From assembly GCA_030765185.1 (NCBI GenBank), contig JAVCDE010000003.1, positions 38-64,037 of the forward strand: a stretch of DNA of 64,000 nt, written 5' to 3'. The position numbers were made by a program, and so were the translations under genes. Shown here piece by piece: positions 5,437-51,961 of this stretch. Origin of the DNA: Candidatus Aceula meridiana. Its GTDB lineage: Bacteria; Omnitrophota; Gorgyraeia; Zapsychrales; Aceulaceae. The notes beneath the pieces are model-generated. The model did no database searches, was not told the origin of the DNA, and saw only the letters and a list, made by a program, of their open reading frames with translations. Within the stretch, counting starts at the first letter, position 1. Every line of letters begins with the position of its first letter.

Positions 5437-5438
5437 AG

Positions 5439-32771: not shown

Positions 32772-33116
32772 ATGGATTCGAGTGAAAAAAGAAGATATCT
32801 AAGGTTTAGAATTTTTATGGATGTAGACGTAATAGGCTTTGAAGCAAAGAATTCTTTAAAAGGAACATTAGAAAATATTTCTAGGCAGGGCATTGGTATT
32901 ATTTTAAAAAAGGGTAAAAAGCCCAAGGGTACTGAAGTTGATTTGAACTTGCATCTTGATTCTCAAAAAAAACCTGTTTCAGCTAGAGGGAGAATTACCT
33001 GGATAGAGGAAGAAAGTAATAAAAACCGTCTAGGAGTTGAGATTAAAAGGATTGACAAAGAGGTTCAGGATGATATTCTTGATATAGCTTATCAAGACTG
33101 GAAAGCCCAAATTTAA
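32772..33116 (+). CDS. PilZ domain protein (c-di-GMP receptor)
   Basis: RRYLRFR (RxxxR) and ENISRQG (D/NxSxxG) PilZ motifs; GGGAGGG RBS before the ATG at 32772. Confidence 0.7.
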   Translation: MDSSEKRRYLRFRIFMDVDVIGFEAKNSLKGTLENISRQGIGIILKKGKKPKGTEVDLNLHLDSQKKPVSARGRITWIEEESNKNRLGVEIKRIDKEVQDDILDIAYQDWKAQI

Positions 33117-33138
33117 AATTTGTAGGATTTAAGAAATA

Positions 33139-34842
33139 ATGACAGAAAAAAGAGAAAAAATTGGTGATTACCTTTTAAAAAATGGAACTCTTTCGCAGGA
33201 GCAGCTTATCCTTGCCTTAGAACATCAAAAAGAAAATGAAAAATTCCTTGGTGAAATTCTTGTTGAAAAAGGATACGTTGCCGAAGAAGAAGTCGCTGCC
33301 GTCTTAGCTGAACAATTTAACCTCCCGTTTATTCTTTTAAGTGCTTGCCCCATTGACGATACCCTCAAGAAACTTTTTCCTGTTAACAAAATGAAACAGT
33401 GGAAGATTTTTCCCATTAAGCTTGAGGGAGACATCTTAACTGTTGCCGTAACCAATCCTTTAGATATTAAAATGATGCAGGAGCTCAAGTATTTAAGCGG
33501 CTATAAACTTGATTTAGCTGTTACAACCTCCAAAGAAATTTTCGATTGCATTCATAAGAATTTTGGGTCTAATGCTAACCTTGAAGAAGCCATTGCAGAT
33601 GTAAGTTTCCGAAGTCAGTCTCAGGCATTTAATTTAAAGGGAGATATGAAAACCCTTGAAGAGGCTGTTCAAGATGCTCCCATCGTCAAGTTGGTTAACT
33701 CTGTTGTTGATGAAGCGATTAAGCAAAATGCTTCGGATATTCATTTTGAGCCACAGAAAGCAGCGCTTCGCATCCGTTATCGTGTCGACGGAGTTTTATA
33801 TGAGTCTTTCAATGTCCCTAAGGAGCTTCAGCTTCCTGTGATTTCACGTATCAAGATTATCAGCGGTATGGATATTTCAGAAACGCGCCGTCCCCAGGAT
33901 GGACGCATGAGCTTTGAGATTAACCACAGGTCTTATGATATCCGTACATCGACTTTGCCAGATTCTTTTGGTGAAAAAATTGTTATGCGTATTTTAGATA
34001 AAGAAAATATTTTTCTTGAGATTAGAAATTTAGGCCTTAGCGACAAAGAATCTCAGTTTGTAAAGAATCTTATCCAGATTCCTTATGGAATTATTTTGAT
34101 TACAGGCCCAACCGGAAGCGGAAAAACGACTACGCTTTATTCAATGCTTAACCAGCTTAATGACGAAACGCGTAATATCGTAACAGTGGAAAATCCGACT
34201 GAGTATCAGCTAGAAGGGATTAATCAAACAGAAGTTAACGAGAAAGCAGGGTATACGTTTGCGACAGGCATGCGCCATATTTTGCGACAGGACCCTGATG
34301 TCATTATGATTGGAGAAATCCGCGACTTGGAAACGGCGGAGATTGCCGTGCAGGCTGCGCTAACAGGGCATTTAGTTCTCTCGACGCTGCATACGAATAA
34401 TGCCGCCGGTAGTGTCGTGAGGCTTTTAGATATGAACGTAGAACCTTTTTTAATTGGCTCTTCCGTGGTTGGAGTTGTCGCTCAAAGGTTAGTACGCAAG
34501 CTATGTCCACACTGCTCAAAGGAAGAGGATATCTCTGTCGAAGTTGAAAAGAGTATTTTAAAATATGTTCCGGATTTCAAAAGTCGTAAATTTGCAAAAC
34601 CCGTAGGATGCAAGAAGTGCCGGAATATTGGCTATCAAGGGCGGACAGGAATTTTTGAAATGATGAACGTCACCCCTGAGATTAAAGAGATGATTATTAA
34701 AAGAGCAACGGAGGCTGAGATTGAAAAGAAAGCTATTGAGCAGGGAATGAGCACGTTGCAGATGAGTGCTATTGAAAAAGCTTCACAAGGCGCAACTTCT
34801 CTTGAAGAAGCCATGCGCGTAACCTTTGTTAGGATGGTGTAA
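33139..34842 (+). CDS. pilB: Type IV pilus assembly ATPase PilB/GspE family with N-terminal MshEN-type (T2SSE_N) domain
   Basis: N-terminal KIGDYLLKNGTLSQEQLILALEHQ (MshEN-like); Walker A GPTGSGKTTT; Asp and His boxes; tetracysteine CPHC...CKKC. Confidence 0.9.
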   Translation: MTEKREKIGDYLLKNGTLSQEQLILALEHQKENEKFLGEILVEKGYVAEEEVAAVLAEQFNLPFILLSACPIDDTLKKLFPVNKMKQWKIFPIKLEGDILTVAVTNPLDIKMMQELKYLSGYKLDLAVTTSKEIFDCIHKNFGSNANLEEAIADVSFRSQSQAFNLKGDMKTLEEAVQDAPIVKLVNSVVDEAIKQNASDIHFEPQKAALRIRYRVDGVLYESFNVPKELQLPVISRIKIISGMDISETRRPQDGRMSFEINHRSYDIRTSTLPDSFGEKIVMRILDKENIFLEIRNLGLSDKESQFVKNLIQIPYGIILITGPTGSGKTTTLYSMLNQLNDETRNIVTVENPTEYQLEGINQTEVNEKAGYTFATGMRHILRQDPDVIMIGEIRDLETAEIAVQAALTGHLVLSTLHTNNAAGSVVRLLDMNVEPFLIGSSVVGVVAQRLVRKLCPHCSKEEDISVEVEKSILKYVPDFKSRKFAKPVGCKKCRNIGYQGRTGIFEMMNVTPEIKEMIIKRATEAEIEKKAIEQGMSTLQMSAIEKASQGATSLEEAMRVTFVRMV

Positions 34843-34843
34843 G

Positions 34844-36043
34844 ATGCCAAAATTTTTATACAAAGTCAAAGATATAGACGGCAAACTGCTTGTCGGTGCG
34901 CTAGAGGCAGAAAATGAAAGATCTGTCAGACATATTATTACTGAGAAGGGTTATTTTGTTATCAACGTTCAGAAAATGAAGAAAACAAAATTAGCTGGAT
35001 TTGGAAAGCCGGTGAGCATCGATAGCCTCATTCGTTTTACGCATAAACTCAGCGCGATGTTTAAAGCCGGGGTTCCTATTTTGACAGCTTTAAGAATGTT
35101 GTGGGAGCAAGGCGAAAACAAGTATCTTCAGATTATTACCAGTGAGATTATTACAGATATTAGTCAGGGTGAATTATTTTCGGATTCGTTGAGAAAGTTT
35201 CCTGAGGTCTTTTCTGAGATTTATATTAGTCTTGTTCAGGTTAGTGAAAGCAGCGGGGATTTTCCGCAGGCCTTAGAGCAAATCATTGCACACTTAAACC
35301 GTCAGAAAGAGATCAGGCGAAAAGTGCAGAACGCTCTTATGTATCCTATTATTGTTGTTGTTATGATTATTGCTGTTATCATCGCAATGCTAGTGATTGT
35401 TATCCCAGTCTTTAAAAAGATATTCTCGGACATCAACGTTGATCTCCCGTTCATCACAAGAATGTTTATTTTCTTGTCTGATAATTTTATTCGTTATTGG
35501 TGGGTGGGGTTTGTTATTACAGGAGTATTGGTTTTTGTTTATCGAAAATATAAAAAGACCCCGCGCGGGGCATATAAAATCGATGAATGCAAACTGCGTA
35601 TTCCAACTATAGGTCAATTAATTTATTACGTTGCACTTTCGAAATTTATTCACTCGTTTTATGCTTTATCCGTTAGCGGTGTTGAAATCTCAAAGACTTT
35701 AGCCAGTTCTGCGCGTAGTTGTGCCAACAGGGTATTAGAAGGGAAAATTAGTTCTGCCACAGAATCTATTGTTAAGGGAAAGAGCATTAGTCGGGCACTT
35801 CAGGAGGCAGGGTGTCTGCCTGCTTTTTTTGTGCAAATGCTTTCGATTGGGGAGACAAGCGGATCGATACTCAATATGATGAAAATTTTAATGACATTTT
35901 TAGATGATGAAATTGATTTTCAGATTAATAAAATTTTTACGATTTTAGGGCCGGCTACGATTATTATTGTCGGGTTTATTGTCTTGTTTGTTTTACTAGC
36001 TATTTATTTCCCGATATTTACATTGTGGGGTAATATTGGATAA
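34844..36043 (+). CDS. pilC: Type IV pilus inner-membrane platform protein PilC/GspF family
   Basis: Two T2SF repeats and three TM helices; ATG at 34844 after the pilB stop. Confidence 0.85.
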   Translation: MPKFLYKVKDIDGKLLVGALEAENERSVRHIITEKGYFVINVQKMKKTKLAGFGKPVSIDSLIRFTHKLSAMFKAGVPILTALRMLWEQGENKYLQIITSEIITDISQGELFSDSLRKFPEVFSEIYISLVQVSESSGDFPQALEQIIAHLNRQKEIRRKVQNALMYPIIVVVMIIAVIIAMLVIVIPVFKKIFSDINVDLPFITRMFIFLSDNFIRYWWVGFVITGVLVFVYRKYKKTPRGAYKIDECKLRIPTIGQLIYYVALSKFIHSFYALSVSGVEISKTLASSARSCANRVLEGKISSATESIVKGKSISRALQEAGCLPAFFVQMLSIGETSGSILNMMKILMTFLDDEIDFQINKIFTILGPATIIIVGFIVLFVLLAIYFPIFTLWGNIG

Positions 36044-36076
36044 GATGTAATTTTTTTGAAAATTTTTATGATTTTC

Positions 36077-36107
36077 TTGAGCAAACAAGGCAAAAAAATG
36101 CTATACT
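36077..36107 (+). promoter_or_regulatory. Candidate promoter for the pilin operon (TTGAGC ... TGcTATACT extended -10)
   Basis: Read in sequence; GGAGG RBS follows before the pilin ATG. Confidence 0.45.
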
Positions 36108-36159
36108 AAAATGTTAAACTAAATTAAAAATTATTAACCATTTAAATGAAGGAGGAAAT

Positions 36160-36525
36160 ATGATGAAAAGGAAAGGTTTTACATTGGTAGAAATACTCTT
36201 TGTTGTAGTCATCGTTGGCATCTTAGTCGCTATTTTGGTGCCAAATGCTTTAAAAGCCGTTGCTGCTGCTAATACAAAAGCATGCGCTGGCAACATTCGT
36301 TCGATTGATGCTGCATTTGTGGCTTGCTATGCGGATACGCGCGATTGGGCTAGCTGCGATGACATAGCTGCCTTGGTAACCGGAGGCTACTTAGAAGATA
36401 CCCCTGTTTGTCCAATTGGTGTAGATTATGCAGCAGACTCAACAAATGGGAGGCGATGTGCCAGGACAGGCCACTTTAGCGCCGGCAACTTCCCGCATAC
36501 GCACGATGCAGTAGTAGTAGAGTAA
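36160..36525 (+). CDS. pilA: Type IV major pilin (PilA-like), class III signal peptide
   Basis: MMKRKG|FTLVEILFVVVIVGILVAILVP prepilin cleavage/N-methylation motif with Glu5; 121 aa, Cys-rich C-terminal head. Confidence 0.85.
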   Translation: MMKRKGFTLVEILFVVVIVGILVAILVPNALKAVAAANTKACAGNIRSIDAAFVACYADTRDWASCDDIAALVTGGYLEDTPVCPIGVDYAADSTNGRRCARTGHFSAGNFPHTHDAVVVE

Positions 36526-36554
36526 CATTATTGTAATTCTTTTTAAGGATAACT

Positions 36555-38051
36555 ATGACAATTCTTGAATTAGGATATAAAAAGATACGTTGTCTTGTTT
36601 ATCAAAAACAAGGAAAAGGTATTGCTATTCAAAAAGCTGAGAGTTTTAATTTTGATAGCGATATCTTTCCAATTCAGGATATAGGGAAAGCGGCGAAGCC
36701 GATAAAAGATTTCTGTAAAGAAAAAAGAATATCTACTTCGCCGCTTTCTTTGATTATTTCTCACCCGGGCGTTATTTTTAGGGACCTCACCTTGCCGCCT
36801 ATGTCGCACAAAGAAATCGAAGCCGTTATTATTAACGACATCGAAAGAGGCCCTCGTTTTTCTTCCAAAAAATACCTTTATACATATTCCGCACACTATA
36901 TGACGGGTGGCCGTAAAATTCGCGTAGTTTATTTTGTGCTTGAAAAAGAAATTCTTAATAAAGCTATACGGCTTGTGAAGGCAGCAGGATTTTCTTTAAA
37001 ATCCGTAAGCCTTTGTCCGGCTACACTTTTAGGTTTGCCAGCTGTAAATCCTTTAGATGGCAAAGATTTGATGCTTGTTTATCCTCAAGAAAAAACAACA
37101 TATGCCGTTATTACTAACGGAAAAGTTTGTCAGGGCATTTATACTATCGACATAGGACTTAAAGATATTTATGACAAAGAAGGCAATCAGATTAAAGAGA
37201 AACAGTTTGGCCTCTTCGGCGAAGAAATTCGTCGTACTTTAAAATCGTATGAAACTGCACAACATGCTATTATTTCCGAAGTTATTTTATTTTCTGACAA
37301 CCAACTAACCGGTGATTTAAGCGAGAAGATAGCTTCTTCCTTGGGTCGCACGGTTAAGGCTCCGCAGCTTCCGGCTCAGGCAAAGATTTCAAGCAAAGTA
37401 ATTGATGCACCACTCGATGGAACCTATTTTAGCTGTCTAGGAAAAGCCTTAGAGCCCTTAAGGGGAAACCCTTGCTTTAATTTTTTAAAAATTTGGGATT
37501 ACCGCAAAACTTCAGAATATAAAAATAAAGTTTTATTGTTTGTGGGGATTTATTTAGCGGTGGTAGGGATACTTTTCTTTAAGCCTGTTTCTCAGGTTTA
37601 TAACAAAGTAAGCGATGAGAACAGGCAAGGAATTGCTCTTATGGCGAAGACTGAAGGGCTAGAGGCTCGAACAAATATTTTAGAACAGCAACGAAAGCAA
37701 TATCTAGCGACAAAAAATAATTTACTTCGGCAGGCGACAGTGGTTCATAAACTGAAAAAGATATCTTGGTCAGAAGCATTTTTTAAAATTGGTGAAGTTT
37801 TACCCGAGGATATCTGGCTGACAAGTTTTGTCTTGGGAAAATCAGGAAGTTTTTACCTTAAGGGAAAAGGCATGACCTTAGATTCTGTTGCTGCTTTTAT
37901 TCGCGCGTTAAAAAAAGTTGATTTATTCGGTGAGGCAAAATTAAAATCGACGCGGGAAGCCAAAATCGAAGAAGAAATAGTACGTGAATTCGACATAGAA
38001 TCTTTTGTCATTGTTTCGCCAGACGAAACAGTGGACAAGAAAGAAAAATAA
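36555..38051 (+). CDS. PilM-PilN fusion protein (actin-like PilM domain, TM helix, PilN-like periplasmic domain)
   Basis: About 320-aa PilM/FtsA-like N-terminal region, a TM segment (VLLFVGIYLAVVGILFF), then a roughly 170-aa coiled-coil/periplasmic region; locus context. Confidence 0.65.
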   Translation: MTILELGYKKIRCLVYQKQGKGIAIQKAESFNFDSDIFPIQDIGKAAKPIKDFCKEKRISTSPLSLIISHPGVIFRDLTLPPMSHKEIEAVIINDIERGPRFSSKKYLYTYSAHYMTGGRKIRVVYFVLEKEILNKAIRLVKAAGFSLKSVSLCPATLLGLPAVNPLDGKDLMLVYPQEKTTYAVITNGKVCQGIYTIDIGLKDIYDKEGNQIKEKQFGLFGEEIRRTLKSYETAQHAIISEVILFSDNQLTGDLSEKIASSLGRTVKAPQLPAQAKISSKVIDAPLDGTYFSCLGKALEPLRGNPCFNFLKIWDYRKTSEYKNKVLLFVGIYLAVVGILFFKPVSQVYNKVSDENRQGIALMAKTEGLEARTNILEQQRKQYLATKNNLLRQATVVHKLKKISWSEAFFKIGEVLPEDIWLTSFVLGKSGSFYLKGKGMTLDSVAAFIRALKKVDLFGEAKLKSTREAKIEEEIVREFDIESFVIVSPDETVDKKEK

Positions 38052-38683
38052 TGAAACAAAAAACTTCTCTTAGCGTGACAAAGATGATTGCTGTTGGGAT
38101 TTGTCTCTTGATTACGGCAGTCGCGATTTTTTCTTTGAAATATTTTAAGGCAAAAAGGCTAAGCCTTCAGGCTGAAAATAAATTTTATCAGCAAAGAAGT
38201 GAGACAGCCGAAGAGAGAATAACCCAGCTTGATGTTCTTCTTGGAGAGTATTACGAAGATATTGAAAATTTTGAGAAATTTTTATTTAAGGAAAAGGATA
38301 TTCCTCTTTTTCTAGAGGACATGTCAGACTCTTCGGAAGAATTTGAAATTGCGGTTAAAAATATTCAAGCCCTTGAAATTAAGGAAGTCGAAGTCGAAAA
38401 GGCGCCTCGCACCGCAGAAAAAATTGCTCAAAATCAAAGTAGGAACTCTAATAAAAAAGAACTTGATACGAATATTCTTGTGATGGTTTCAACACCTTTT
38501 AAAATTAATATTGAAGGAAAATTTCGTGATGTATTGCAGTTTATTCTTTCAGTTGAAGAAAGCCGACAATTGTTAACGGTTAGTGAGGTAAAGATTAGCT
38601 CTCGGAAATATCCTGTTATTCTAGGGGAATTTCGACTAGATCTTTATAGTTTAAGCGGGTTAGAGGAGAAGAAAGCAGAATGA
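38051..38683 (+). CDS. PilO-like type IV pilus assembly protein
   Basis: N-terminal TM helix, coiled coil, C-terminal ferredoxin-like region; position after pilMN. Confidence 0.55.
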   Translation: MKQKTSLSVTKMIAVGICLLITAVAIFSLKYFKAKRLSLQAENKFYQQRSETAEERITQLDVLLGEYYEDIENFEKFLFKEKDIPLFLEDMSDSSEEFEIAVKNIQALEIKEVEVEKAPRTAEKIAQNQSRNSNKKELDTNILVMVSTPFKINIEGKFRDVLQFILSVEESRQLLTVSEVKISSRKYPVILGEFRLDLYSLSGLEEKKAE

Positions 38684-39162
38684 AAAAAAACTTCGCCATC
38701 ATTTTAGCCTTTATTACAATTAGTTTAGTTTCGACTAGCTGTGATATGAATCCTTTTTCTGCGAAGCAAGAATCTCTTAGGCTTGAAGATGAATCTTTTT
38801 ATATTCAGGATATTGAATTGGCCAAGGCCCTGGTATGGCCGAAACCAAGAGAGATTTCGTTTGAACGTGATGTTTTTCGTCCGCTTGTTGGAGAAGGTGC
38901 TGGATCAGCATCGATAACAGGCAGAACTGGTGAAGAAGGAAACACGCAAGTGGCAGACCTTGATCGATTTGTACTGACTGCAACATTTTTATCAGATAAT
39001 TCTATTGCCTATATTAAGCCGAAGGATGAAGGTAAGGCGTTTTTTGTTCATGTCGGAGAAAAAATAGGCAGTGCTGTTGTTAAAGAAATCAAGCGCAACG
39101 AAGTAATCGTTGAGCTTGAAGGCCAAGAAATATTTTTAAAAATTTTAGGGGGTCAAAAATGA
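38680..39162 (+). CDS. PilP-like lipoprotein
   Basis: Lipoprotein signal (LVSTSC), C-terminal beta-rich domain; ATGA coupling with both neighbours. Confidence 0.5.
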   Translation: MKKNFAIILAFITISLVSTSCDMNPFSAKQESLRLEDESFYIQDIELAKALVWPKPREISFERDVFRPLVGEGAGSASITGRTGEEGNTQVADLDRFVLTATFLSDNSIAYIKPKDEGKAFFVHVGEKIGSAVVKEIKRNEVIVELEGQEIFLKILGGQK

Positions 39163-40964
39163 TAAAATTAAAATATTTATTCTTTATTTTTCTTGTTATT
39201 TTGTTTGCCTTTGCATCCTATCTGCCTGCGGCTTCAGCAGAAGGAAATCGAGGGTTTCTTTATAGTGCTGACGTGAGCACTGACGTGGCTAGTGATGCCG
39301 AGATGGCTAGCGATGTCGAGATGGCTAGTGATGCCGACGTGGCTAGCGATGTCGAGATGGCTAGTGATGTCGAGATGGCTAGTGATGCTGATGCGGTTGG
39401 CGATGCTGACACGGTTAGCAATACTGACGCGGTCGGCGATGTTGAGGCGTTGACTGCTTCTATCTTAGCGGAACGCGATACTGTTCAAGAAATTCAGGCT
39501 GCTTCTTTAAGCGAAGAATATTTAAGGCGAGGAGAAGAAGAAGCTAACAAGCTTGCCATGGAGAGGGTTTCCAAAGAGCCTCAATCAAGGGGGGAAGAGC
39601 TTCCCGTTAAGCAAGCTTTTTGGCAAGAGGCAAAAGTAGAAGTTCCTTTAGAAGAAGAGCTTCAGGAAGATGTCCTTGAGGTGGAAGATTTAGACGAGTG
39701 GGCAGAAGAAGAAGGTGTTCAAGCGCAGGAGCCTGCTGAAGAAGTTGCTGAAGCCGTTGTTGAAGCTGCTCCTCTTAAAAAGGAAGCTCTTTTTGATTTT
39801 ATCGCAGAAAATTCTGAAGAGAGAATTTCATTAGATTTTGATAATATAACTTTAGAGGAGGCGCTTCGGGTAGTAGGCGAAGGAAGCAATATTAATATCG
39901 TTGTTGACCCCTTGGTAAGAGATAAGAAAATTACTCTTCATTTAAAGGATGTTACAGTTCCTGAAGCTTTAAAATTGGTTTTTCAGTCCTATGATTTATC
40001 TTTTTCAAAGACAGGAAATTCGATGTTTGTTTCCACTAAAGATAAAATTATTTCTATGGCATCAATCAATAAGGTTATTCGATTAAAGAATATTAATGCT
40101 GATGATGCTCAAAAACTTGTTAAGGATTTAGCTCAATCTGTTACTGCTGACAAAGGAATTAATGCTTTAGTGATTACTGGAACTGAAGCCCAGGTTGCAG
40201 AGATCGAGCGTATTTTAGCAGAAATTGATGTGTCTCGCAGACAGGTTTTATTGGTTACACAAATTTTAGAGATTGATAAAGATTCTTTGGAGGAACTCGG
40301 TGTGGATTGGTCGGATGAACTTGCATTTTCATTCCAAGAATCTAGATTTGACCCTGATATTGTTGGAACAACGGTCACAGACCCCTTGGATGCTTTTAAC
40401 ATCTATCGCTTCGGCAGAACGCCTATGCAGCTTTCGGCAACAATTAAGATGTTGATTCAAAACAATAAGGCAAAAATTCTTTCAAATCCGAAGATTGCAA
40501 CTATTAGCGGCGAAGAGGCTAGTATTTTTATAGGGGATAGAGTTCCCTACGAGGTGACAAGAATTTCTGGTGGGGTTTCCAATACTGAAGTCGAGTTTGT
40601 TGAAGCTGGCATTCGCTTAAATATTCTTCCTTCAATTATTGAAGAGGACTATGTGGTCGTTAGTGTAAGACCTGAAGTGAGCTTTATCCATTCTTGGCGC
40701 GGAGAAAATGATCAGTATCCATGGGTAAGAACCCGTGAAGCCTCTGCAAGTGTTAAGGTTAAAAATGGAGAGCCTTTTGTTGTGGGTGGCTTAATAAGTG
40801 AAGAAGAAAAAGAAAATATTTACAAAATTCCTGTGTTGGGAGATATTCCATTCTTGGGGGCGCTTTTTCGATACAAGAACACAACGGTAGATAATAAAGA
40901 AATTATTATCACGGTTATTCCACAAATCATGATGGAAGAGCCTCTAACTGCATCAAATATATAG
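39159..40964 (+). CDS. pilQ: Type IV pilus secretin PilQ with N-terminal acidic hexapeptide repeat region
   Basis: Signal peptide; (ASDVEM)-like repeats; C-terminal secretin domain (ILSNPKIATISGEEASIFIGDRVPY ... PVLGDIPFLGALFRYKNT). Confidence 0.85.
   Translation: MIKLKYLFFIFLVILFAFASYLPAASAEGNRGFLYSADVSTDVASDAEMASDVEMASDADVASDVEMASDVEMASDADAVGDADTVSNTDAVGDVEALTASILAERDTVQEIQAASLSEEYLRRGEEEANKLAMERVSKEPQSRGEELPVKQAFWQEAKVEVPLEEELQEDVLEVEDLDEWAEEEGVQAQEPAEEVAEAVVEAAPLKKEALFDFIAENSEERISLDFDNITLEEALRVVGEGSNINIVVDPLVRDKKITLHLKDVTVPEALKLVFQSYDLSFSKTGNSMFVSTKDKIISMASINKVIRLKNINADDAQKLVKDLAQSVTADKGINALVITGTEAQVAEIERILAEIDVSRRQVLLVTQILEIDKDSLEELGVDWSDELAFSFQESRFDPDIVGTTVTDPLDAFNIYRFGRTPMQLSATIKMLIQNNKAKILSNPKIATISGEEASIFIGDRVPYEVTRISGGVSNTEVEFVEAGIRLNILPSIIEEDYVVVSVRPEVSFIHSWRGENDQYPWVRTREASASVKVKNGEPFVVGGLISEEEKENIYKIPVLGDIPFLGALFRYKNTTVDNKEIIITVIPQIMMEEPLTASNI
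39288..39449 (+). repeat. Nine tandem 18-bp repeats (consensus GCTAGTGATGTCGAGATG) inside pilQ, encoding (A/V)(S/G)D(A/V)(E/D)(M/V/A)
   Basis: Read directly; additional degenerate copies lie upstream at 39265-39287. Confidence 0.8.
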
Positions 40965-41058
40965 ACTTAAGCGAGTTTCCTTGAGCTTCCCACCGCCTTG
41001 CTATCGGTATATATATAGTGTATACTTTTAATAACATTTTTATATTTTGGGGGTTTTT

Positions 41059-43284
41059 ATGTCAAGGCAGATATCTTCCGTATATAACAAAAAAGCTTTT
41101 ACCCTTGTCGAAGTTCTCATCAGCATTGTAATTTTATCAGTCACCTTAACGGCTACTTATTTTTCTTTTTCTGCGCTATCGAAGCAAGAAGTACTTTCCC
41201 GTGATCTTCTTACCGCAAAAAATATTTTAACTTCTGAATTTGAAAAAGTTAAGCAAAGAACTTTAAACGAAGAAAACTATTTTGATCAAATCGATGACGA
41301 GACTATGGACGGATCGCTAAGTCCTGTTGATGCTGCAGGGTATCCTGCAGGTTTTTTTCAGGAGAAAAAAGTTTTTTTAGGAGTTAATGGCGATCTTAAG
41401 AAATTTTTTATTGAAGTCCAGTGGACAGAAAGAGGAAAAAATCATTTGATTAATAATGCGTTTTATTTGGCGCTGCCACCATATGCTCTTCCCGGAAACA
41501 TTGCGGGAACTATTACAGCAGGGACAGTAGAGCAGTGTGCCGCAGACCAAGGCTCTTCTCTTTCTGATTCTGATGTCCAGATTCTCCAAGGAGGCGGCTT
41601 TGAAAATAGTTTTGTTAACACTGATGCAAGCGGATATTATGATTTTAGTTCCTTAGCAGAAGGGTCTTTTATTTTACCTCGTGGAAATGACTATCGTCTA
41701 CAAGTCTCTAAAACAGGGTACACAATTTATCGAACGCCGCAAGATAGTCTTATTACAGTTAATGCTGGCGAAGAAACAATCCAGAATGCTTGCCTTACAC
41801 CGGCAGGAAGTGCAACAATTAAAGGATCCGTTGAGGATACTTTGGGGAACCAAATTCTTAATCAAGCTGTTTCCTTGTATCAGGATGGGGAATTTGTTCA
41901 AACAGTTTTTAATGGGGTCAATGGATTTTCTTTTAACGTTCCGATTGAAGAACCAAGTGGAGAGAGTTTTTCCTTGATTACAAGTGGCGAAATAGATAAT
42001 ATTACTAATTCGGGCTTTCCTTTTCAACGAGTTAACGGGGATGAATTTTGTGGGCTTATGTGCCCGGCGATGCCAGGGTGGGATTTTAACTATAGTTATC
42101 GGGGATGGTCATCTGCCGTGTCTTTAAATGAAACCTACACTCTTGGTTCGGGATATATTACTACGGAGTGTTCGAATCCTTGGGTCGGCAGTGAGGACGC
42201 AGACCGCATTTTTGTGCAGCCAGGAGATACAGAAGATCTTGAGAGCATTATCCTTGATCACGTCCCAACAACAACAGTAGCAGGTTTTGTAAGAGAGGGT
42301 AGCTCAAGTGGTCCTGGGGTTGCAGGGGCAGCAATTAGCGGTCGGTGGTGGTGGAATGTTAATCTTTATGATAGCGATACGACAGAGGCAGATGGTTCTT
42401 ATGAACTTGATACTCCAGCGATTCAAGAGCTTTTTCCAGACACTTATTCGTATCATTACAAGATGTCTGTCGAGGCTCCTGTGCCAGAGCCGAATTGTTG
42501 TGATGAAGTAACTCAAACGCAAACTGCGGCTTCAAATTTTAGGCCTCTTTATAAAAATCAAACGGCCAATAAAGATTTTGTTTTTTCAATCGGTGTGCCA
42601 CCTGAATGCGGCGACCTTGGAGGATATGTCCGAGACTCGCAAACAGGTATTAACCTTCAAGGGGCCTCGGTATACGTGTCAGGAGAGGGGCAGGAAAGTA
42701 CTGGAGGAGGAAATGATTTAGGAAAATATCGGTTTGCTTGCGAAAGCTCCCCTAATCCTCCACCGTATTGCCTTGAAGCGAGCGCCAATAGCCGAGGTTA
42801 TCAGGTTTCAAAGAGCGGCTATTATTCTTTGAGAACCTGGTCTGGGTCTTGGCCGTATGTGGGCCTTAATGAATTGATTATCCCGGCCAATCAGGTGACA
42901 ACGGCAGATTTTAGCATTTTAAGGCTCGGCAAGGGTTCTGCCGATGGAACAGTTGTTGATTCTGCGACAAAAGATCCCATCGAGGGGGCGATTGTTCACG
43001 TCTACAGATATTCTGATGATTCTATTACAAAAGTTAGCCAGACTCCAAGCAGCGGATTTTTTAATATTAATAATATTTATGAAAGCTGGCCTAAGCAGGA
43101 GTGGTTTAATGCGGGATGGAATGTACCGCCACAATTTGATCCAGCGCTAGAGCGACATAGAGTTGTTGTTTCAAAAGAAGACTATGAGAGCAAAGAAATT
43201 CTTGATGTCATTATCATTGATGGGCAAACAACGCATTTAGGGACTATCGAACTAGACCCTGTAAGCGTTGGAGGTGGTGTGTAA
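41059..43284 (+). CDS. Large (742 aa) pilin-like protein: N-terminal prepilin-type hydrophobic domain with Ala at the -1 position, followed by beta-rich carboxypeptidase-regulatory-like/adhesin-like domains
   Basis: MSRQISSVYNKKA|FTLVEVLISIVIL (Glu5 present; Ala rather than Gly before Phe1); repeated GYY...G motifs in a Gly/Ser/Thr-rich body. Confidence 0.6.
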   Translation: MSRQISSVYNKKAFTLVEVLISIVILSVTLTATYFSFSALSKQEVLSRDLLTAKNILTSEFEKVKQRTLNEENYFDQIDDETMDGSLSPVDAAGYPAGFFQEKKVFLGVNGDLKKFFIEVQWTERGKNHLINNAFYLALPPYALPGNIAGTITAGTVEQCAADQGSSLSDSDVQILQGGGFENSFVNTDASGYYDFSSLAEGSFILPRGNDYRLQVSKTGYTIYRTPQDSLITVNAGEETIQNACLTPAGSATIKGSVEDTLGNQILNQAVSLYQDGEFVQTVFNGVNGFSFNVPIEEPSGESFSLITSGEIDNITNSGFPFQRVNGDEFCGLMCPAMPGWDFNYSYRGWSSAVSLNETYTLGSGYITTECSNPWVGSEDADRIFVQPGDTEDLESIILDHVPTTTVAGFVREGSSSGPGVAGAAISGRWWWNVNLYDSDTTEADGSYELDTPAIQELFPDTYSYHYKMSVEAPVPEPNCCDEVTQTQTAASNFRPLYKNQTANKDFVFSIGVPPECGDLGGYVRDSQTGINLQGASVYVSGEGQESTGGGNDLGKYRFACESSPNPPPYCLEASANSRGYQVSKSGYYSLRTWSGSWPYVGLNELIIPANQVTTADFSILRLGKGSADGTVVDSATKDPIEGAIVHVYRYSDDSITKVSQTPSSGFFNINNIYESWPKQEWFNAGWNVPPQFDPALERHRVVVSKEDYESKEILDVIIIDGQTTHLGTIELDPVSVGGGV

Positions 43285-43288
43285 AAGA

Positions 43289-43774
43289 ATGAAAAAACAA
43301 AAGGGACATACTTTAATCGAAATGCTTTTTGTGGTCACGTTAGTTGGTATTGGTATGGTTTTGTTTTCAGCAGTCTTTTTTTCAGGCTGGATAAATTATG
43401 AGGTTAATCTAACGCGGCTTAATCTTCAGGCTCAACTCGACAGCGCTTTAACAATGCTAGAAGAAGATGTCTTAGAAGCAGAGGATTTTCCAACGATTAG
43501 CGGAACAACCAGTATTTTACTTAAGTATCCTAATAGTCCAAATTTTTTAGTTCAACAAAGAACATATCAAATTGATGTTGATGGGAGTCTTATTCGGATT
43601 TCCGGTGCTTCTAGCGAAGTTTTAATTAATCAGCTTTTAGACACAGGAAAATCTCAGTTTTATCAAGATAGTCAAGTAAATAATGTGTTGGTTTGTGATT
43701 TGACATTACAAGAGAGAACCTTTGGCCATCTCGTTGTTGCCAACGGGCAAAAAAAGATTGCAGTAAGAAATTAA
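43289..43774 (+). CDS. Minor pseudopilin (prepilin-type N-terminal cleavage/methylation domain; GspH/FimT-like)
   Basis: MKKQKG|HTLIEMLFVVTLVGIGMVLF. Confidence 0.7.
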   Translation: MKKQKGHTLIEMLFVVTLVGIGMVLFSAVFFSGWINYEVNLTRLNLQAQLDSALTMLEEDVLEAEDFPTISGTTSILLKYPNSPNFLVQQRTYQIDVDGSLIRISGASSEVLINQLLDTGKSQFYQDSQVNNVLVCDLTLQERTFGHLVVANGQKKIAVRN

Positions 43775-43788
43775 TAGGAGCTTTTTTG

Positions 43789-45084
43789 ATGAAAATTCAT
43801 CGTATATGTAAAGAAAAAAAAGGTTTCACCCTTGTTGCAAGCATCATGGTATCTTTGGTTTTAGGAATTATCATGATGGTTTCTTTTATCCGTGCTGCAT
43901 CTCACATGGGTTTTCTTCGTTCGAGCCAAGATGGCAAAGATGCTCTTTGTGCGGCATTTGTTGGTCTTGAAAACGCCTTGAACCAGTTAAGAACTGACAT
44001 TGACTGGGTTGGAAACCCAGTCGGGACTTTTATTCCGATTGATGAAACCGTTGACGAGAATGTTAAGAATTTTGGAGATTATAATGTTTGGATTGATGTT
44101 GCCGGTACGACATATTCCCCAAATGGCGTATGGAGGCTTATTCCTGCAATTATTACAGGACGCAATTCAATTCAGAATTCAACCCACACAGCAATCAGGC
44201 AGTTAAGTGTTTTGATTAAAGCACAATCCCCTGCAGCTTTTTTTATATCAAGCTTGTCACCTTTAACGATTCAAGCAGGGGCGGATATCGGGTCCAATGT
44301 TTTGGGGCTTGATATTGCCTTTGGCGCAGCGACGGAAGAACACCCGATTAATATTAACAATGGTGGAAATGCCATTTATTTAAGAAATCTTTCCGGAGAA
44401 GATAATCCTAATATTCATTTTAACGGTGATCCTGCAGGAGAAATTAGGCAAAGCGAGCCAATTACCTTTGTCGGGATTGATAAAGACCGGTATATTGATA
44501 ATGCCCAGAATGGTGGTGGATATTATCATCAGGGGGGAGGCACTTTAGTTATTGACAATGCTGTTTTAGATAGAAATAATTATCTTTTTTCAGGTATAGA
44601 TAACGCTGAAAATGGTTTTGTGTATGCTGATGGAGATGTTGAGATTTCTGTCCAGGAAGTCTTAGATCCTATGGTTATTGTCGCTGGCGGGAATATTTAT
44701 ATCACAGGAGATATTAAATATGATAATATTTCTGATCCCTTTCTTGGGGACCAATTGATGCAGTTAGGGTTGTTTGCTAAAGGTGATATTATTATTGAAA
44801 ACCCAGGAGGAGGAGATAGGACTATTGAAGCTTTTCTTTCCTCAGAGGGAAATCTGAAAGCACTGGGGGACAGAAACGAAAACGGGGTGCTTGATTTTTA
44901 TGGGGCTATGGCGATACGCGGAAGGGACGATAATACGGGATCGGCTATTAATCTTTCAACCTTTCAAGACAGGAATTACCGCTACCACAGTGCGCTTCTT
45001 ACAAACAGTCAAATCGAAATGAACTATATGGCAGATGTTGTTGAATGGTCAATTATTGGCGATCCGGTAGACCTTGCCAACTAG
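43789..45084 (+). CDS. Large minor pilin, GspK/PilX-like (prepilin-type N-terminus lacking Glu5)
   Basis: MKIHRICKEKKG|FTLVASIMVSLVLGIIMM with Ala at +5; 431 aa. Confidence 0.5.
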   Translation: MKIHRICKEKKGFTLVASIMVSLVLGIIMMVSFIRAASHMGFLRSSQDGKDALCAAFVGLENALNQLRTDIDWVGNPVGTFIPIDETVDENVKNFGDYNVWIDVAGTTYSPNGVWRLIPAIITGRNSIQNSTHTAIRQLSVLIKAQSPAAFFISSLSPLTIQAGADIGSNVLGLDIAFGAATEEHPININNGGNAIYLRNLSGEDNPNIHFNGDPAGEIRQSEPITFVGIDKDRYIDNAQNGGGYYHQGGGTLVIDNAVLDRNNYLFSGIDNAENGFVYADGDVEISVQEVLDPMVIVAGGNIYITGDIKYDNISDPFLGDQLMQLGLFAKGDIIIENPGGGDRTIEAFLSSEGNLKALGDRNENGVLDFYGAMAIRGRDDNTGSAINLSTFQDRNYRYHSALLTNSQIEMNYMADVVEWSIIGDPVDLAN

Positions 45085-50572: not shown

Positions 50573-50647
50573 GGGCCCATAGCTCAGTCTGGTTAGAGCA
50601 GTTGACTCATAATCAATTGGTCCCAGGTTCAAGTCCTGGTGGGCCCA
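50573..50647 (+). tRNA. tRNA with CAT anticodon (elongator tRNA-Met, or tRNA-Ile2 if lysidinylated); CCA not encoded
   Basis: Cloverleaf folded by hand: acceptor GGGCCCA/TGGGCCC, D-stem GCTC/GAGC, anticodon loop CTCATAA, T-arm CCAGG-TTCAAGT-CCTGG. Confidence 0.8.
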
Positions 50648-50656
50648 GTTAAATAG

Positions 50657-50733
50657 GGGCGCATAGCTCAGCTGGTTAGAGTGCTGCCCTCACATGGCAG
50701 AGGTCGAAGGTTCGAGTCCTTCTGTGCCCACCA
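50657..50733 (+). tRNA. tRNA-Val (CAC anticodon), CCA encoded
   Basis: Acceptor GGGCGCA/TGTGCCC, anticodon stem-loop CTGCC-CTCACAT-GGCAG, T-arm GAAGG-TTCGAGT-CCTTC, 3' ACCA. Confidence 0.8.
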
Positions 50734-51485: not shown

Positions 51486-51961
51486 GTAAGACATTAAAAA
51501 TATTTATTGATGGTGCATGCCGTGGAAATCCTGGTCCTGCAGGGATTGGTGTTGTTATCCTAGAGGGGAAAAAAGTTTTAAAAGAGATTTCTAAACCTAT
51601 TGGTGAAGCGACTAACAATATTGCTGAATATTCAGCGCTTATTTTTAGCCTTATTGAATCGATAGCTTTAAAGGCCGAAAAAATTCAGATTTGTTCTGAT
51701 AGTGAACTTGTTTGTCGACAGCTTGGCGGAAAATATAAAATTAAGAATTCAAAATTAAAGTTTCTTTACGATGAAGCCATCGCGCTGTTTAAGTGTTTTA
51801 AGTCTGTTGAGATTAAACATATTCCACGCGAGGAAAACAAGCAAGCCGATAGGCTTGCGACAGGTTCTTTAAAAGATATAAAGAGCAGCCTAGATGATCG
51901 CCCCGAAGTCTATCTCTTTGGGGAGGAAAGTCCGAGCTCCAAAGGATATGCATCCCGATAA
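51482..51961 (+). CDS. rnhA: Ribonuclease HI
   Basis: IFIDGACRGNPGPAGIGVVI ... IPREENKQADRLA RNase H motifs; TTG start overlapping the upstream stop; last 27 codons run into the rnpB gene. Confidence 0.7.
   Translation: MSKTLKIFIDGACRGNPGPAGIGVVILEGKKVLKEISKPIGEATNNIAEYSALIFSLIESIALKAEKIQICSDSELVCRQLGGKYKIKNSKLKFLYDEAIALFKCFKSVEIKHIPREENKQADRLATGSLKDIKSSLDDRPEVYLFGEESPSSKGYASR

What the first reader, a model, noticed from the sequence alone, without database searches (positions are those of the whole stretch)
32772..45084. Complete type IV pilus locus with apparent c-di-GMP input
The following genes are contiguous and co-directional: PilZ, PilB, PilC, pilin, PilM-PilN, PilO, PilP, PilQ, a large pilin-like protein and two minor pseudopilins. 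Many operons show ATGA or short-overlap coupling. PilB carries an N-terminal MshEN-like c-di-GMP-binding segment (KIGDYLLKNGTLSQEQLILALEHQ). A stand-alone PilZ receptor sits immediately upstream. No prepilin peptidase (PilD) and no PilT/PilU retraction ATPase are present in the window, which suggests a non-retractile or MSHA/Tad-like usage, or that those genes lie elsewhere.
Basis: partly seen in the sequence, partly recalled or inferred. Interest (0 to 1): 0.55.

Follow-up and report, generated by a model that had tools for sequence, protein, structure and literature searches.

The report
Type IV pilus operon with PilZ
This is a real but largely ordinary type IV pilus gene cluster from an uncultured Antarctic-lake Omnitrophota bacterium, in which both the assembly motor and a small protein encoded just upstream carry intact binding motifs for the signalling nucleotide c-di-GMP.

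Summary
The gene list is confirmed. Window 32772-45084 holds eleven co-directional, tightly packed genes: pilZ, pilB, pilC, a pilin, a true pilM-pilN fusion, pilO, a pilP-like lipoprotein, pilQ, a 741-aa modular pilin, a 161-aa minor pilin and a 431-aa pilin-like protein without Glu5. The source is Candidatus Aceula meridiana (Omnitrophota, class Velamenicoccia), a phylum already reported to carry type IVa pili.

The c-di-GMP reading holds. PilB residues 7-59 pass NCBI's curated MshE-type c-di-GMP-motif model, as do five orthologues. PilZ keeps RxxxR and D/NxSxxG in six of six orthologues that are only about 30-35% identical. PilZ stays directly upstream of pilB in relatives where smc is replaced by other genes, so it belongs to the pilus module.

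Two claims fail. "Complete" overstates, because the prepilin peptidase is missing. "Non-retractile or MSHA/Tad-like" has no support: pilT and pilD are rarely near pilB in other genomes, a more distant cluster with a long PilM-like protein carries both, and the ATPase, PilM/N/O and secretin are type IVa-like.

Lineage-specific features are the PilZ plus MshEN pairing, the PilM-N fusion and a family of about 700-aa pilins with adhesin-like beta-sandwich stalks. No binding or function has been tested.

The parts
32772..33116 (+). pilZ: stand-alone 114-aa PilZ-domain protein with RxxxR (RRYLR, aa 7-11) and D/NxSxxG (NISRQG, aa 35-40)
   Evidence: PF07238 58.3 bits. Both motifs are kept in 6/6 orthologues. 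Always directly upstream of pilB in relatives.
33139..34842 (+). pilB: type IVa pilus assembly ATPase, 567 aa
   Evidence: TIGR02538 619.9 bits over the full length, against GspE 590.6 from aa 80. Best solved relatives are Geobacter PilB 6olj (4e-148) and M. xanthus PilB 3jc8.
33157..33315 (+). MshEN-type c-di-GMP-binding segment of PilB (aa 7-59): two 24-residue motifs joined by the 5-residue spacer KENEK
   Evidence: NF053729 57.9 bits, cutoff 38. The N-domain matches MshE 5htl at 3e-15. Motif read against PMC5013675 and PMC11731258.
34844..36043 (+). pilC: platform protein, 399 aa
   Evidence: T2SSF 170.6 bits in two repeats. PilC and GspF models hit but below cutoff.
36160..36525 (+). major pilin candidate, 121-aa prepilin (leader MMKRKG|FTLVE, five Cys)
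   Evidence: N_methyl 30.9 bits. ComGC and GspG models 43.5 bits each, below cutoff. Orthologue present in every related cluster.
36555..38051 (+). pilM-pilN fusion, 498 aa (actin-like PilM domain, FNFL motif resembling the PilN N-terminus, TM helix, PilN domain)
   Evidence: PilN Pfam hit at aa 412-482. Profile A2 hits PilM 3jc8_Ma 9.5e-21, 2ych 2.4e-13, 5eou 4.7e-7 and PilN 3jc8_Na 7.8e-4, with no GspL hit.
38051..38683 (+). pilO, 210 aa
   Evidence: Pfam PilO 18.5 bits, below cutoff 22. Profile A3 hits M. xanthus PilO 3jc8_Oa at 4.7e-5.
38680..39162 (+). pilP-like protein, 160 aa, with a lipoprotein-like N-terminus (assignment inferred)
   Evidence: Position between pilO and pilQ. Weak HR-domain similarity only: GspC_delta 1.4e-4, T2SSC 0.042, GspC 3oss 0.19. 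The lipoprotein-like N-terminus is my reading of the sequence, not a predictor result.
39159..40964 (+). pilQ secretin, 601 aa: acidic repeat region, N0 (STN), one N1 domain, secretin domain; no AMIN domain
   Evidence: Secretin 152.9, STN 45.5, Secretin_N 41.7 bits. PilQ model 203 bits against GspD 179.5.
39282..39449 (+). 18-bp (6-aa, acidic) tandem repeats inside pilQ; the window protein is about 90-130 aa longer than its orthologues
   Evidence: TRF. Orthologues are 472-510 aa.
41059..43284 (+). 741-aa modular minor pilin: type IV pilin N-terminal domain plus a stalk of prealbumin/CnaB-like beta-sandwich domains
   Evidence: N_methyl plus CarboxypepD_reg. About 100 full-length relatives of 680-770 aa. 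AF2 model pLDDT 88.1. Foldseek hits to TIE protein, CNA B repeats, SdrD and SpaA-type pilins at 1e-13 to 1e-6 with low global TM-scores.
43289..43774 (+). 161-aa minor pilin
   Evidence: N_methyl 30.4 bits. GspH, ComGD and GspG models weak. Conserved after the big pilin in all relatives.
43789..45084 (+). 431-aa conserved last gene: pilin-like hydrophobic N-terminus without Glu5, then a beta-rich region; possible GspK/PilX-like cap (inferred)
   Evidence: No Pfam or PDB hit. Orthologues in 7 related loci. Single-sequence model is unusable, pLDDT 41.8.

Best explanation
This is an 11-gene type IVa-like pilus assembly module (pilZ-pilB-pilC-pilin-pilMN-pilO-pilP-pilQ-big pilin-minor pilin-431-aa protein) of the ultra-small Omnitrophota bacterium Ca. 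Aceula meridiana.

Shown by sequence:
- PilB is a PilB-type hexameric-ATPase homologue with a zinc-ribbon Cys motif (read by eye).
- The alignment complex is PilM/N/O-type, with PilM and PilN fused in one chain.
- The secretin has PilQ-like architecture (N0 plus one N1 domain).
- PilB's first 59 residues form an MshEN-type c-di-GMP site.
- PilZ carries the complete canonical c-di-GMP motifs and is conserved as the first gene of the module.

Inferred:
- c-di-GMP binds the PilB N-domain and licenses or stabilises the motor for pilin polymerisation, as in V. cholerae MshE, M. xanthus PilB and Thermus PilF.
- c-di-GMP-loaded PilZ acts on the same motor, most simply by docking on the PilB N-terminal domain as Xanthomonas PilZ does. 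This would give a second, separately tuned c-di-GMP input.
- The fibre is primed or capped by the three pilin-like proteins. The 741-aa pilin would display a stalk of adhesin-like beta-sandwich domains for attachment to surfaces or host or prey cells.
- The prepilin peptidase, and probably a PilT, are encoded elsewhere in the genome.
For: Identity of the parts.

MshEN motif:
- NF053729 scores above cutoff in the window and in L164, L167, L169, L170 and L001.
- The N-domain matches MshE 5htl and PilF GSPII domains.
- The first residues of the two motifs are K7 and F36. This lysine plus hydrophobic pattern parallels K167/L196 of Thermus PilF GSPII-B, which binds c-di-GMP at 6 nM (PMC11731258).

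PilZ:
- RxxxR and D/NxSxxG are invariant in six orthologues that share about 30-35% identity with the window PilZ.
- PilZ-pilB gaps are 1-25 nt.
- The adjacency is kept in at least two kinds of flank. smc precedes pilZ in the window, L164, L167 and L170. A small MerR-type HTH gene precedes it in L169, and in L173 that HTH gene follows sugar-modifying enzymes.
- PilZ does not reach the 25 commonest families among the same-strand ORFs directly upstream of 125 other pilB homologues, so fewer than 4 of 126 members carry it. The pairing is therefore clade-specific rather than background.

Big pilin: a coherent family of about 100 representatives with a conserved FTLxE N-terminus, a confident model, fold matches to Gram-positive adhesin and pilin stalk domains, and named members from Omnitrophota.

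Context: 135/141 Velamenicoccia genomes encode a type IVa pilus, read there as a host-attachment organelle (PMC10066038).
Against: - Nothing has been tested biochemically.
- Motif I has Thr where L/V/I is expected (position 11).
- Motif II starts with Phe, which is outside the published (R/K/L) set.
- The turn Gly of motif II is replaced in two orthologues: R in L164 and E in L173.
- No GGDEF, EAL or HD-GYP gene and no c-di-GMP riboswitch lies in the window. Whether this organism makes c-di-GMP at all is unverified.
- A PilZ-PilB contact is pure analogy. The Xanthomonas/Pseudomonas PilZ that binds PilB is the non-c-di-GMP-binding type.
- The more distant syntenic cluster L001 has no PilZ, so PilZ is not needed by this kind of machine.
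- A promoter-like site lies inside the 3' end of pilZ. With the 10-nt smc-pilZ gap, this leaves the transcription units of the window itself undefined.
- PilP and the 431-aa protein are assigned by position only.
Confidence: 0.6

Rival explanations
1. The machine works mainly as a type II secretion-like endopilus. A short, non-retracted pseudopilus would push folded exoproteins, such as the secreted glycoside hydrolases and peptidases inferred for this organism, through the secretin.
For: - The pilin is short (115 aa mature) and scores equally on the ComGC and GspG models.
- One chain carrying PilM and PilN has the same topology as GspL.
- The PilP-like protein's only similarities are to the GspC HR domain.
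- No pilT lies in the window.
- PGAP names several genes 'type II secretion system'.
- Secreted hydrolases are inferred for Ace Lake Omnitrophota (PMC8542988).
Against: - PilB-type models and structures fit better and over the full length than GspE.
- The fusion's profile hits PilM and PilN and gives no GspL hit.
- PilO hits PilO, not GspM.
- The secretin has N0 plus a single N1 domain and scores higher on PilQ than on GspD.
- The pilin has five Cys. GspG-type pseudopilins typically lack a disulfide (own knowledge).
- There is no PDZ-bearing GspC.
- A 741-aa adhesin-like pilin is hard to fit into a periplasmic pseudopilus.
Confidence: 0.15
2. The pilus is primarily a DNA-uptake (competence) pilus, as proposed for other ultra-small bacteria with reduced genomes.
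For: - The pilin's joint-best named model is ComGC, and the minor pilins hit ComGD/E/F weakly.
- The secretin aligns with HofQ at 150 bits, below cutoff.
- Thermus PilF, the closest c-di-GMP-motif analogue, serves both twitching and transformation (PMC11731258).
Against: - No comEA, comEC or dprA lies in the 64-kb window.
- All Com-model scores are below cutoff.
- The large beta-sandwich-stalk pilin points to adhesion.
- DNA uptake and adhesion are not mutually exclusive, so this is more an added function than a true rival.
Confidence: 0.12
3. PilZ is not a pilus component. It sits there by synteny and serves another process, for example chromosome organisation together with the upstream smc (compare the M. 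xanthus PilZ protein CdbS), or it is a generic c-di-GMP adaptor.
For: - In the window pilZ starts 10 nt after smc, with no terminator between them.
- A promoter-like site for pilB lies inside pilZ.
- The whole smc...rpoD block is syntenic in L164 and L170, so adjacency there could be inherited order.
- L001 has the pilus module without PilZ.
- A PilZ protein acting on chromosome organisation exists (PMC10313047, title and abstract only).
Against: - In L169 and in L173/L174 smc is not upstream, yet PilZ is still the gene directly before pilB, behind a small MerR-type gene and an AT-rich intergenic region.
- PilZ-pilB gaps of 1-6 nt in four relatives suggest co-translation.
Confidence: 0.12
4. 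The two c-di-GMP motifs are evolutionary leftovers. The N-domain and PilZ serve structural or protein-docking roles without nucleotide sensing.
For: - The motifs deviate: T17, F36, and a replaced motif II turn Gly in two orthologues.
- XpsE and PilF GSPII-A show that MshEN-like domains can lose binding (PMC5013675; PMC11731258).
- No c-di-GMP enzymes are seen in the window.
Against: - The curated HMM cutoff is passed in all six proteins tested.
- The residues that matter (both Gly of the L-G pairs, the Leu clusters and both terminal Gln) are present in the window protein.
- PilZ binding residues are invariant against a background of about 30-35% identity. That is hard to explain without selection for binding.
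Confidence: 0.15

Closest known systems
Type IVa pilus machine of Myxococcus xanthus (PilB, PilC, PilM, PilN, PilO, PilP, PilQ; PDB 3jc8)
   Same: It gives the best or near-best solved matches for PilB (1e-139), PilM (9.5e-21), PilN (7.8e-4) and PilO (4.7e-5). M. xanthus PilB also binds c-di-GMP through an MshEN domain (PMC11656802).
   Different: Here PilM and PilN are one polypeptide. The secretin has an acidic repeat region, and no AMIN domain was detected. No pilT or pilD lies in the cluster. A canonical PilZ heads the operon. The minor-pilin set is three genes, one of them 741 aa.
Vibrio cholerae MshE / MshEN domain (PDB 5htl) and Thermus thermophilus PilF GSPII-B (PDB 8pdk)
   Same: A 53-residue site built from two 24-residue motifs and a 5-residue spacer at the N-terminus of the assembly ATPase. 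NF053729 is passed and 5htl is hit at 3e-15. Lys then a hydrophobic residue at the first motif positions parallels GSPII-B K167/L196.
   Different: The rest of the locus is not MSHA-type: the MshL model scores far below cutoff and I saw no other Msh-specific genes. There is a single N-domain, not three as in PilF. Phe, not Leu, is at motif II position 1, and Thr is at motif I position 11. Binding is untested.
PilZ (PA2960 / XAC1133) - PilB - FimX complex of Pseudomonas and Xanthomonas (PDB 7lko)
   Same: A stand-alone PilZ-domain protein of about 115-120 aa is functionally tied to the pilus assembly ATPase. That PilZ binds the PilB N-terminal domain (PMC8389850; PMC11656802).
   Different: That PilZ does not bind c-di-GMP. 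It relies on FimX for the signal, and its PilB N-domain is not a c-di-GMP binder. Here both PilZ and PilB keep complete binding motifs, pilZ is operonic with pilB, and no FimX-like gene is nearby. No sequence similarity to solved PilZ chains was detectable.
GspL of type II secretion systems
   Same: One chain combines a cytoplasmic actin-like domain, a TM helix and a periplasmic ferredoxin-like domain, which is the topology of a PilM-PilN fusion (own knowledge).
   Different: The profile of the fusion finds PilM and PilN but no GspL chain. After the PilM domain the fusion has an FNFL/INLL motif that resembles the PilN N-terminal peptide which PilM binds (compare the engineered PilM-PilN chimera 5eou). 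The link to that peptide is my own knowledge.
Type IVa pilus clusters reported across Omnitrophota (Seymour et al. 2023, PMC10066038)
   Same: Same phylum and class. 135/141 Velamenicoccia genomes score positive for a type IVa pilus, read there as a host-attachment organelle.
   Different: Term searches of that paper's main text found no c-di-GMP, and searches of its supplements found no pilT or pilD. The passages I read do not mention PilZ, the PilM-N fusion or the 700-aa pilin family. The 'symbiotic' F-type ATPase often found beside those clusters is not in this window.
Modular type IV pilins with grafted functional domains (e.g. Streptococcus sanguinis PilB/PilC; Thermus ComZ) - own knowledge, not tested here
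   Same: A pilin N-terminal domain carries extra globular modules that give the fibre an adhesive or binding function.
   Different: Here the modules are several prealbumin/CnaB-like beta-sandwiches. The family appears confined to Omnitrophota wherever an organism name is readable.

Membership tests
Type IVa pilus (T4aP) | PilB-type assembly ATPase | tested here: met
   TIGR02538 619.9 bits over aa 7-562. This is the best model but is below the equivalog cutoff of 675.65. Full-length match to Geobacter and Myxococcus PilB structures.
Type IVa pilus (T4aP) | PilC platform protein and a class III signal-peptide pilin | tested here: met
   T2SSF in two repeats and N_methyl 30.9 bits, with G|FTLVE.
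Type IVa pilus (T4aP) | PilM, PilN, PilO alignment proteins | tested here: met
   Profiles hit PilM 9.5e-21, PilN 7.8e-4 and PilO 4.7e-5. PilM and PilN are fused.
Type IVa pilus (T4aP) | PilP lipoprotein | tested here: inconclusive
   Only sub-threshold HR-domain hits. The position and a lipoprotein-like N-terminus (read from the sequence) fit.
Type IVa pilus (T4aP) | PilQ secretin | tested here: met
   Secretin, STN and one Secretin_N domain. The PilQ model is best at 203 bits, below its cutoff of 284.
Type IVa pilus (T4aP) | PilT retraction ATPase | tested here: not met
   None in the 64-kb window. The rest of the genome cannot be reached with these tools.
Type IVa pilus (T4aP) | PilD prepilin peptidase | tested here: not met
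   None in the window. It is expected elsewhere, because the prepilins need it.
Type II secretion system | GspE, GspL, GspM, GspC (with PDZ) and a GspD with N0-N3 domains | tested here: not met
   GspE scores below PilB. There is no GspL or GspM hit, no PDZ domain and a single N1 domain.
MSHA pilus | MshL secretin | tested here: not met
   The MshL model scores 135.7 against a cutoff of 250.2.
Tad / type IVc pilus | TadA-type ATPase | tested here: not met
   The TadA-type model scores 48.8 against a cutoff of 373. The locus proteins hit PilB/PilC/PilQ-type models instead.
MshEN c-di-GMP-binding domain | Two 24-residue motifs (R/K/L)LGxx(L/V/I)(L/V/I)xxG(L/V/I)(L/V/I)xxxxLxxxLxxQ joined by a 5-residue spacer | tested here: met
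   NF053729 57.9 bits against a cutoff of 38, aa 7-59. By eye there are four deviations: I8, T17, F36 and V52. The motif is conserved in five orthologues.
MshEN c-di-GMP-binding domain | Measured c-di-GMP binding | not testable with these tools
   Needs ITC or DRaCALA on PilB(1-150).
Canonical (c-di-GMP-binding) PilZ domain | PilZ fold with RxxxR and D/NxSxxG motifs | tested here: met
   PF07238 58.3 bits. RRYLR and NISRQG are present, and both motifs occur in 6/6 orthologues.
Canonical (c-di-GMP-binding) PilZ domain | Measured c-di-GMP binding | not testable with these tools
   Needs in vitro binding assays.
PilZ of the PA2960/XAC1133 type (PilB chaperone) | Degenerate motifs with no c-di-GMP binding, and binding to the PilB N-domain and FimX | tested here: not met
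   The motifs are intact here. There is no detectable sequence similarity to 7lko or other solved PilZ chains. No FimX-like gene lies in the window. PilB binding is untested.

The most novel reading that the evidence does not exclude
In this Omnitrophota clade the pilus motor may be gated by two c-di-GMP receptors encoded side by side: a canonical PilZ that docks on PilB, and PilB's own arginine-poor MshEN site, which could be high-affinity. Together they would form a two-threshold or coincidence switch. That switch would decide when an ultra-small, probably host-dependent cell extends a pilus tipped with a 700-aa CnaB-like adhesin pilin to grab its host. On this reading the module (pilZ, PilM-N fusion, giant pilin, 400-aa cap without Glu5) is an undescribed, lineage-specific subtype of type IVa pilus.
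Probability: 0.25. Interest if true: 0.55.

Novelty: new variant of a known kind. Interest (0 to 1): 0.35.

Why it matters
Omnitrophota are uncultured, mostly ultra-small bacteria thought to live on other cells, and type IV pili are their main candidate attachment organelle. A conserved module whose first gene is a c-di-GMP receptor, and whose motor carries a second c-di-GMP site, gives a concrete hypothesis for how attachment is switched on. The parts are small and soluble, so binding can be tested without culturing the organism. The natural PilM-PilN fusion and the 700-aa pilin family are useful comparative material for pilus and T2SS evolution and for finding the adhesin. Beyond that the locus is a normal type IV pilus cluster in a phylum already known to have them.

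Tried and rejected
- Pattern-based scans of genome contigs and metagenome contigs with PilB gave 160 loci, none closer than 46-48% identity. Only L001 was fully syntenic and L104 partly. They did not find the close relatives that were later reached through the big pilin.
- The word-indexed protein search returned only the query itself for PilZ and for PilMN. An alignment query added just three distant PilM proteins.
- Exact look-ups of the window's PilB and PilZ gave no contig, so the other 140 kb of the source contig and the rest of the genome could not be read. pilT, pilD and GGDEF/EAL genes could not be searched genome-wide.
- Single-sequence PDB searches for PilMN and PilZ found nothing. 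The profile search for the 431-aa family found nothing significant.
- The single-sequence AlphaFold model of the 431-aa protein was unusable, pLDDT 41.8, so I ran no fold search on it.
- The afdb50 fold library was unavailable.
- My first regex count of MshEN motifs in PilB homologues was unreliable because of start-codon choice. I replaced it with the curated HMM.
- The PilT/PilD base rate uses crude motifs. At least one 'PilT' hit, in a short locus outside the 52 counted (L063), is a PilB paralogue, so the PilT count may include such false positives.
- The sigma-70 promoter and terminator scans gave counts close to the shuffled expectation, so they define no operon boundaries.
- Rejected readings: MSHA-type and Tad-type system; GspL identity for the fusion.

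Full report
**What is in the sequence**

Window 32772-45084 carries eleven genes on the + strand with short gaps or overlaps:

| Junction | Spacing |
|---|---|
| smc / pilZ | 10-nt gap |
| pilZ / pilB | 22-nt gap |
| pilB / pilC | 1-nt gap |
| pilMN / pilO | 1-nt overlap |
| pilO / pilP | ATGA, 4-nt overlap |
| pilP / pilQ | ATGA, 4-nt overlap |
| big pilin / minor pilin | 4-nt gap |
| minor pilin / last gene | 14-nt gap |

Only pilC/pilin (116 nt) and pilQ/big pilin (94 nt) have sizeable spacers.

Pfam and NCBIfam identify:
- a PilZ domain;
- a PilB-type ATPase;
- PilC;
- a 121-aa prepilin;
- a 498-aa protein with a C-terminal PilN domain;
- a weak PilO;
- a small protein with a lipoprotein-like N-terminus;
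- a secretin with N0 (STN), one N1 domain and the secretin domain;
- a 741-aa prepilin with CarboxypepD_reg domains;
- a 161-aa prepilin;
- a 431-aa protein with no family hit.

The flanks are housekeeping genes: smc upstream, and cvpA, a NIF3-family gene, dnaG and rpoD downstream. No other ORF of at least 100 aa in the 64 kb is a prepilin peptidase, a PilT-family ATPase or a GGDEF/EAL protein. No c-di-GMP riboswitch reaches Rfam's threshold.

**Source organism**

The proteins are identical to GenBank entries MDP8265424-33 of a Candidatus Aceula meridiana MAG, on a contig of 202,994 bp. PGAP gives only generic names, and three of the proteins are 'hypothetical'. The organism comes from Ace Lake, Antarctica. 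It belongs to Omnitrophota, class Velamenicoccia, order Zapsychrales, with a genome of about 1.9 Mb. A phylum-wide survey already reported type IVa pilus clusters in 135 of 141 Velamenicoccia genomes and read them as host-attachment organelles (PMC10066038). The kind of locus is therefore not new.

**Which type IV filament system**

PilB:
- It fits the type IVa PilB model best and over its full length. TIGR02538 scores 619.9 bits, against GspE 590.6 bits starting at residue 80. Both are below their equivalog cutoffs.
- Its best solved relatives are Geobacter and Myxococcus PilB. GspE structures align only from residue 153.

The 498-aa protein:
- Its N-terminal two-thirds had no Pfam hit.
- A profile built from it and two homologues (L001, L104) hits solved PilM structures: 3jc8 at 9.5e-21, 2ych at 2.4e-13 and 5eou at 4.7e-7.
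- The C-terminal part of the profile hits PilN at 7.8e-4.
- No GspL chain appears.
- It is therefore a natural PilM-PilN fusion. Just after the PilM domain it has an FNFL/INLL motif that resembles the PilN N-terminal peptide PilM normally binds.

Other components:
- The PilO profile hits M. xanthus PilO at 4.7e-5.
- 'PilP' has only sub-threshold similarity to the GspC/PilP HR domain. It is assigned by position.
- The secretin scores higher on PilQ than on GspD and has a single N1 domain.
- MSHA and Tad models score far below cutoff.

The machine is type IVa-like. The T2SS reading keeps some weight because of the short GspG/ComGC-like pilin and the GspL-like topology of the fusion.

**c-di-GMP site in PilB**

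- Residues 7-59 pass NCBI's curated MshE-type c-di-GMP-motif model: NF053729, 57.9 bits, cutoff 38.
- The N-domain aligns with the solved MshE N-domain (5htl, 3e-15) and with the PilF GSPII domains.
- Read against the published motif (PMC5013675), motif I is KIGDYLLKNGTLSQEQLILALEHQ, the spacer is KENEK and motif II is FLGEILVEKGYVAEEEVAAVLAEQ.
- Both L-G pairs, the Leu clusters and both terminal Gln residues are present.
- The deviations are I8, T17, V52 and the first residues of the two motifs, K7 and F36.
- A lysine plus a hydrophobic residue at those first positions parallels K167/L196 of Thermus PilF GSPII-B. That domain binds c-di-GMP at 6 nM without arginines (PMC11731258).
- The same model is passed by the PilB orthologues of L164, L167, L169, L170 and L001, at 55-65 bits.
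- The turn glycine of motif II is replaced in L164 and L173.

**Is PilZ part of the pilus module?**

In the window alone this is ambiguous. pilZ starts 10 nt after smc, behind a strong ribosome-binding site. A promoter-like site lies inside its 3' end.

Among the same-strand ORFs directly upstream of 125 other pilB homologues, PilZ does not reach the 25 commonest families, so fewer than 4 of 126 members carry it. The only syntenic locus found through PilB (L001) has an NHL-repeat protein there instead.

The question was settled through the big pilin. An exhaustive HMMER search found about 100 full-length relatives, and I could read the contigs of several:

| Locus | Genes immediately upstream of pilB |
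|---|---|
| L164 | smc, pilZ |
| L167 | smc, pilZ |
| L170 | smc, pilZ |
| L169 | 74-aa MerR-type HTH gene (behind an AT-rich intergenic region), pilZ |
| L173/L174 | hexapeptide transferase, epimerase, small MerR-type HTH gene, pilZ |

- L164, L167 and L170 repeat the window's whole gene order. L164 and L170 also share its downstream genes.
- PilZ is the gene directly upstream of pilB in all six orthologous clusters with upstream sequence. Gaps are 1-25 nt.
- These relatives are well diverged from the window: RpoD 77%, PilB 59-62%, PilZ 33-35% identity.
- RxxxR and D/NxSxxG are nevertheless present at equivalent positions in all six PilZ proteins.

PilZ thus travels with pilB rather than with smc, and its binding residues appear to be under selection.

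**The pilin-like genes**

The 741-aa protein:
- It belongs to a coherent family of 680-770 aa proteins.
- Conserved features are the FTLxE N-terminus, a GWSSA motif, paired cysteines and a C-terminal ETWPP motif.
- An AlphaFold model built on 61 family members is confident, with pLDDT 88.1. It shows a long pilin helix, a pilin beta-sheet and then a string of beta-sandwich domains.
- Foldseek matches those domains to CNA B repeats, SdrD B domains, the TIE protein and SpaA-type Gram-positive pilins at 1e-13 to 1e-6. Global TM-scores are low, as expected for a multi-domain chain.
- Wherever an organism name is readable, members are from Omnitrophota.
- I read it as a modular minor pilin that displays an adhesin-like stalk.

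The 431-aa protein:
- It is equally conserved in the module.
- It has a pilin-like hydrophobic N-terminus without Glu5 and a beta-rich body.
- No family or structure match was obtained.
- A GspK/PilX-like cap role is only an inference.

**Retraction and the peptidase**

The 'non-retractile' inference rests on absence from 64 kb.
- In a crude motif scan of 52 loci holding +-10 kb around a pilB homologue, only 8 had a PilT-like gene and 6 a PilD-like gene. Absence nearby is therefore the usual case.
- A more distant cluster with a 606-aa PilM_2 protein (L161) encodes PilD next to PilB and a genuine PilT after the secretin: TIGR01420 452 bits, cutoff 319.
- I could not read the rest of the Aceula genome, so the question stays open.
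- The locus should not be called complete, because the four prepilins need a peptidase.

**Comparative note on regulation**

The more distant clusters carry other signalling modules at the same place. L104 has a stand-alone CheY-like receiver upstream of pilB. L161 has a receiver fused to PilB, whose N-terminal motif looks degenerate by eye. The pilB 5' side therefore looks like a slot for variable regulatory inputs. That fits PilZ being a regulator of the motor.

**Verdict**

The c-di-GMP interpretation is supported at the sequence level and strengthened by conservation. The 'complete', 'non-retractile' and 'MSHA/Tad-like' parts are not supported.

The most likely mechanism is a type IVa pilus whose extension motor senses c-di-GMP directly through its MshEN site and indirectly through an operonic canonical PilZ. 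The fibre would present a large adhesin-like pilin. The motifs and the synteny are shown. Binding, the PilZ-PilB contact and the adhesin role are inferred.

It is a lineage-specific variant of a well-known system in a phylum already known to have it, so interest is moderate to low.

Noticed in passing
window 19734-25175 (+): A 1813-aa ORF with no Pfam hit and a signal-peptide-like N-terminus. It lies about 8 kb upstream of the pilus module, on the far side of a divergent ETF/acyl-CoA dehydrogenase block. Large orphan surface proteins are a theme in Omnitrophota.
   Followed up: no
window 51882-52239 (+) and 51449-51961 (+): The RNase P RNA (RF00010, 147.9 bits) overlaps the last ~80 nt of the RNase H-like ORF.
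   Followed up: no
window 39282-39449 (inside pilQ): Acidic 6-aa tandem repeats (18-bp unit) make this PilQ 601 aa, against 472-510 aa in orthologues. This looks like a recent repeat expansion in the periplasmic N-terminal region.
   Followed up: partly
L169 362-586; L173 1861-2049: A small (62-74 aa) MerR/HTH_17-type gene lies directly upstream of pilZ in two relatives that lack smc at this position. It may be a dedicated transcriptional regulator of the module and is absent from the window.
   Followed up: partly
L104 8895-9266; L161 257-2452: More distant clusters have a stand-alone CheY-like receiver upstream of pilB (L104) or a receiver fused to the C-terminus of PilB (L161) instead of PilZ.
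   Followed up: partly
L063 2569-5432; L005 6835-10370: Other Omnitrophota pilus loci carry two PilB-like assembly ATPase genes close together upstream of pilC. They are adjacent in L063 and about 200 bp apart in L005.
   Followed up: no
window 29363-53600 vs L170 1-22316: The whole block smc, pilus module, cvpA, NIF3, dnaG, rpoD, Zn-ribbon gene, RNase H, yebC, ruvC is syntenic between the window and a relative with RpoD of roughly 77% identity. The pilus module is thus embedded in a conserved core-genome neighbourhood.
   Followed up: partly
window 4231-6728 (+): Two adjacent Wzy_C/O-antigen-ligase-family genes sit in a polysaccharide cluster. This family also includes pilin O-glycosylases, but I tested no link to the pilus.
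   Followed up: no
window 50573-50733 (+): tRNA-Met (CAT) and tRNA-Val (CAC) lie directly after rpoD.
   Followed up: no
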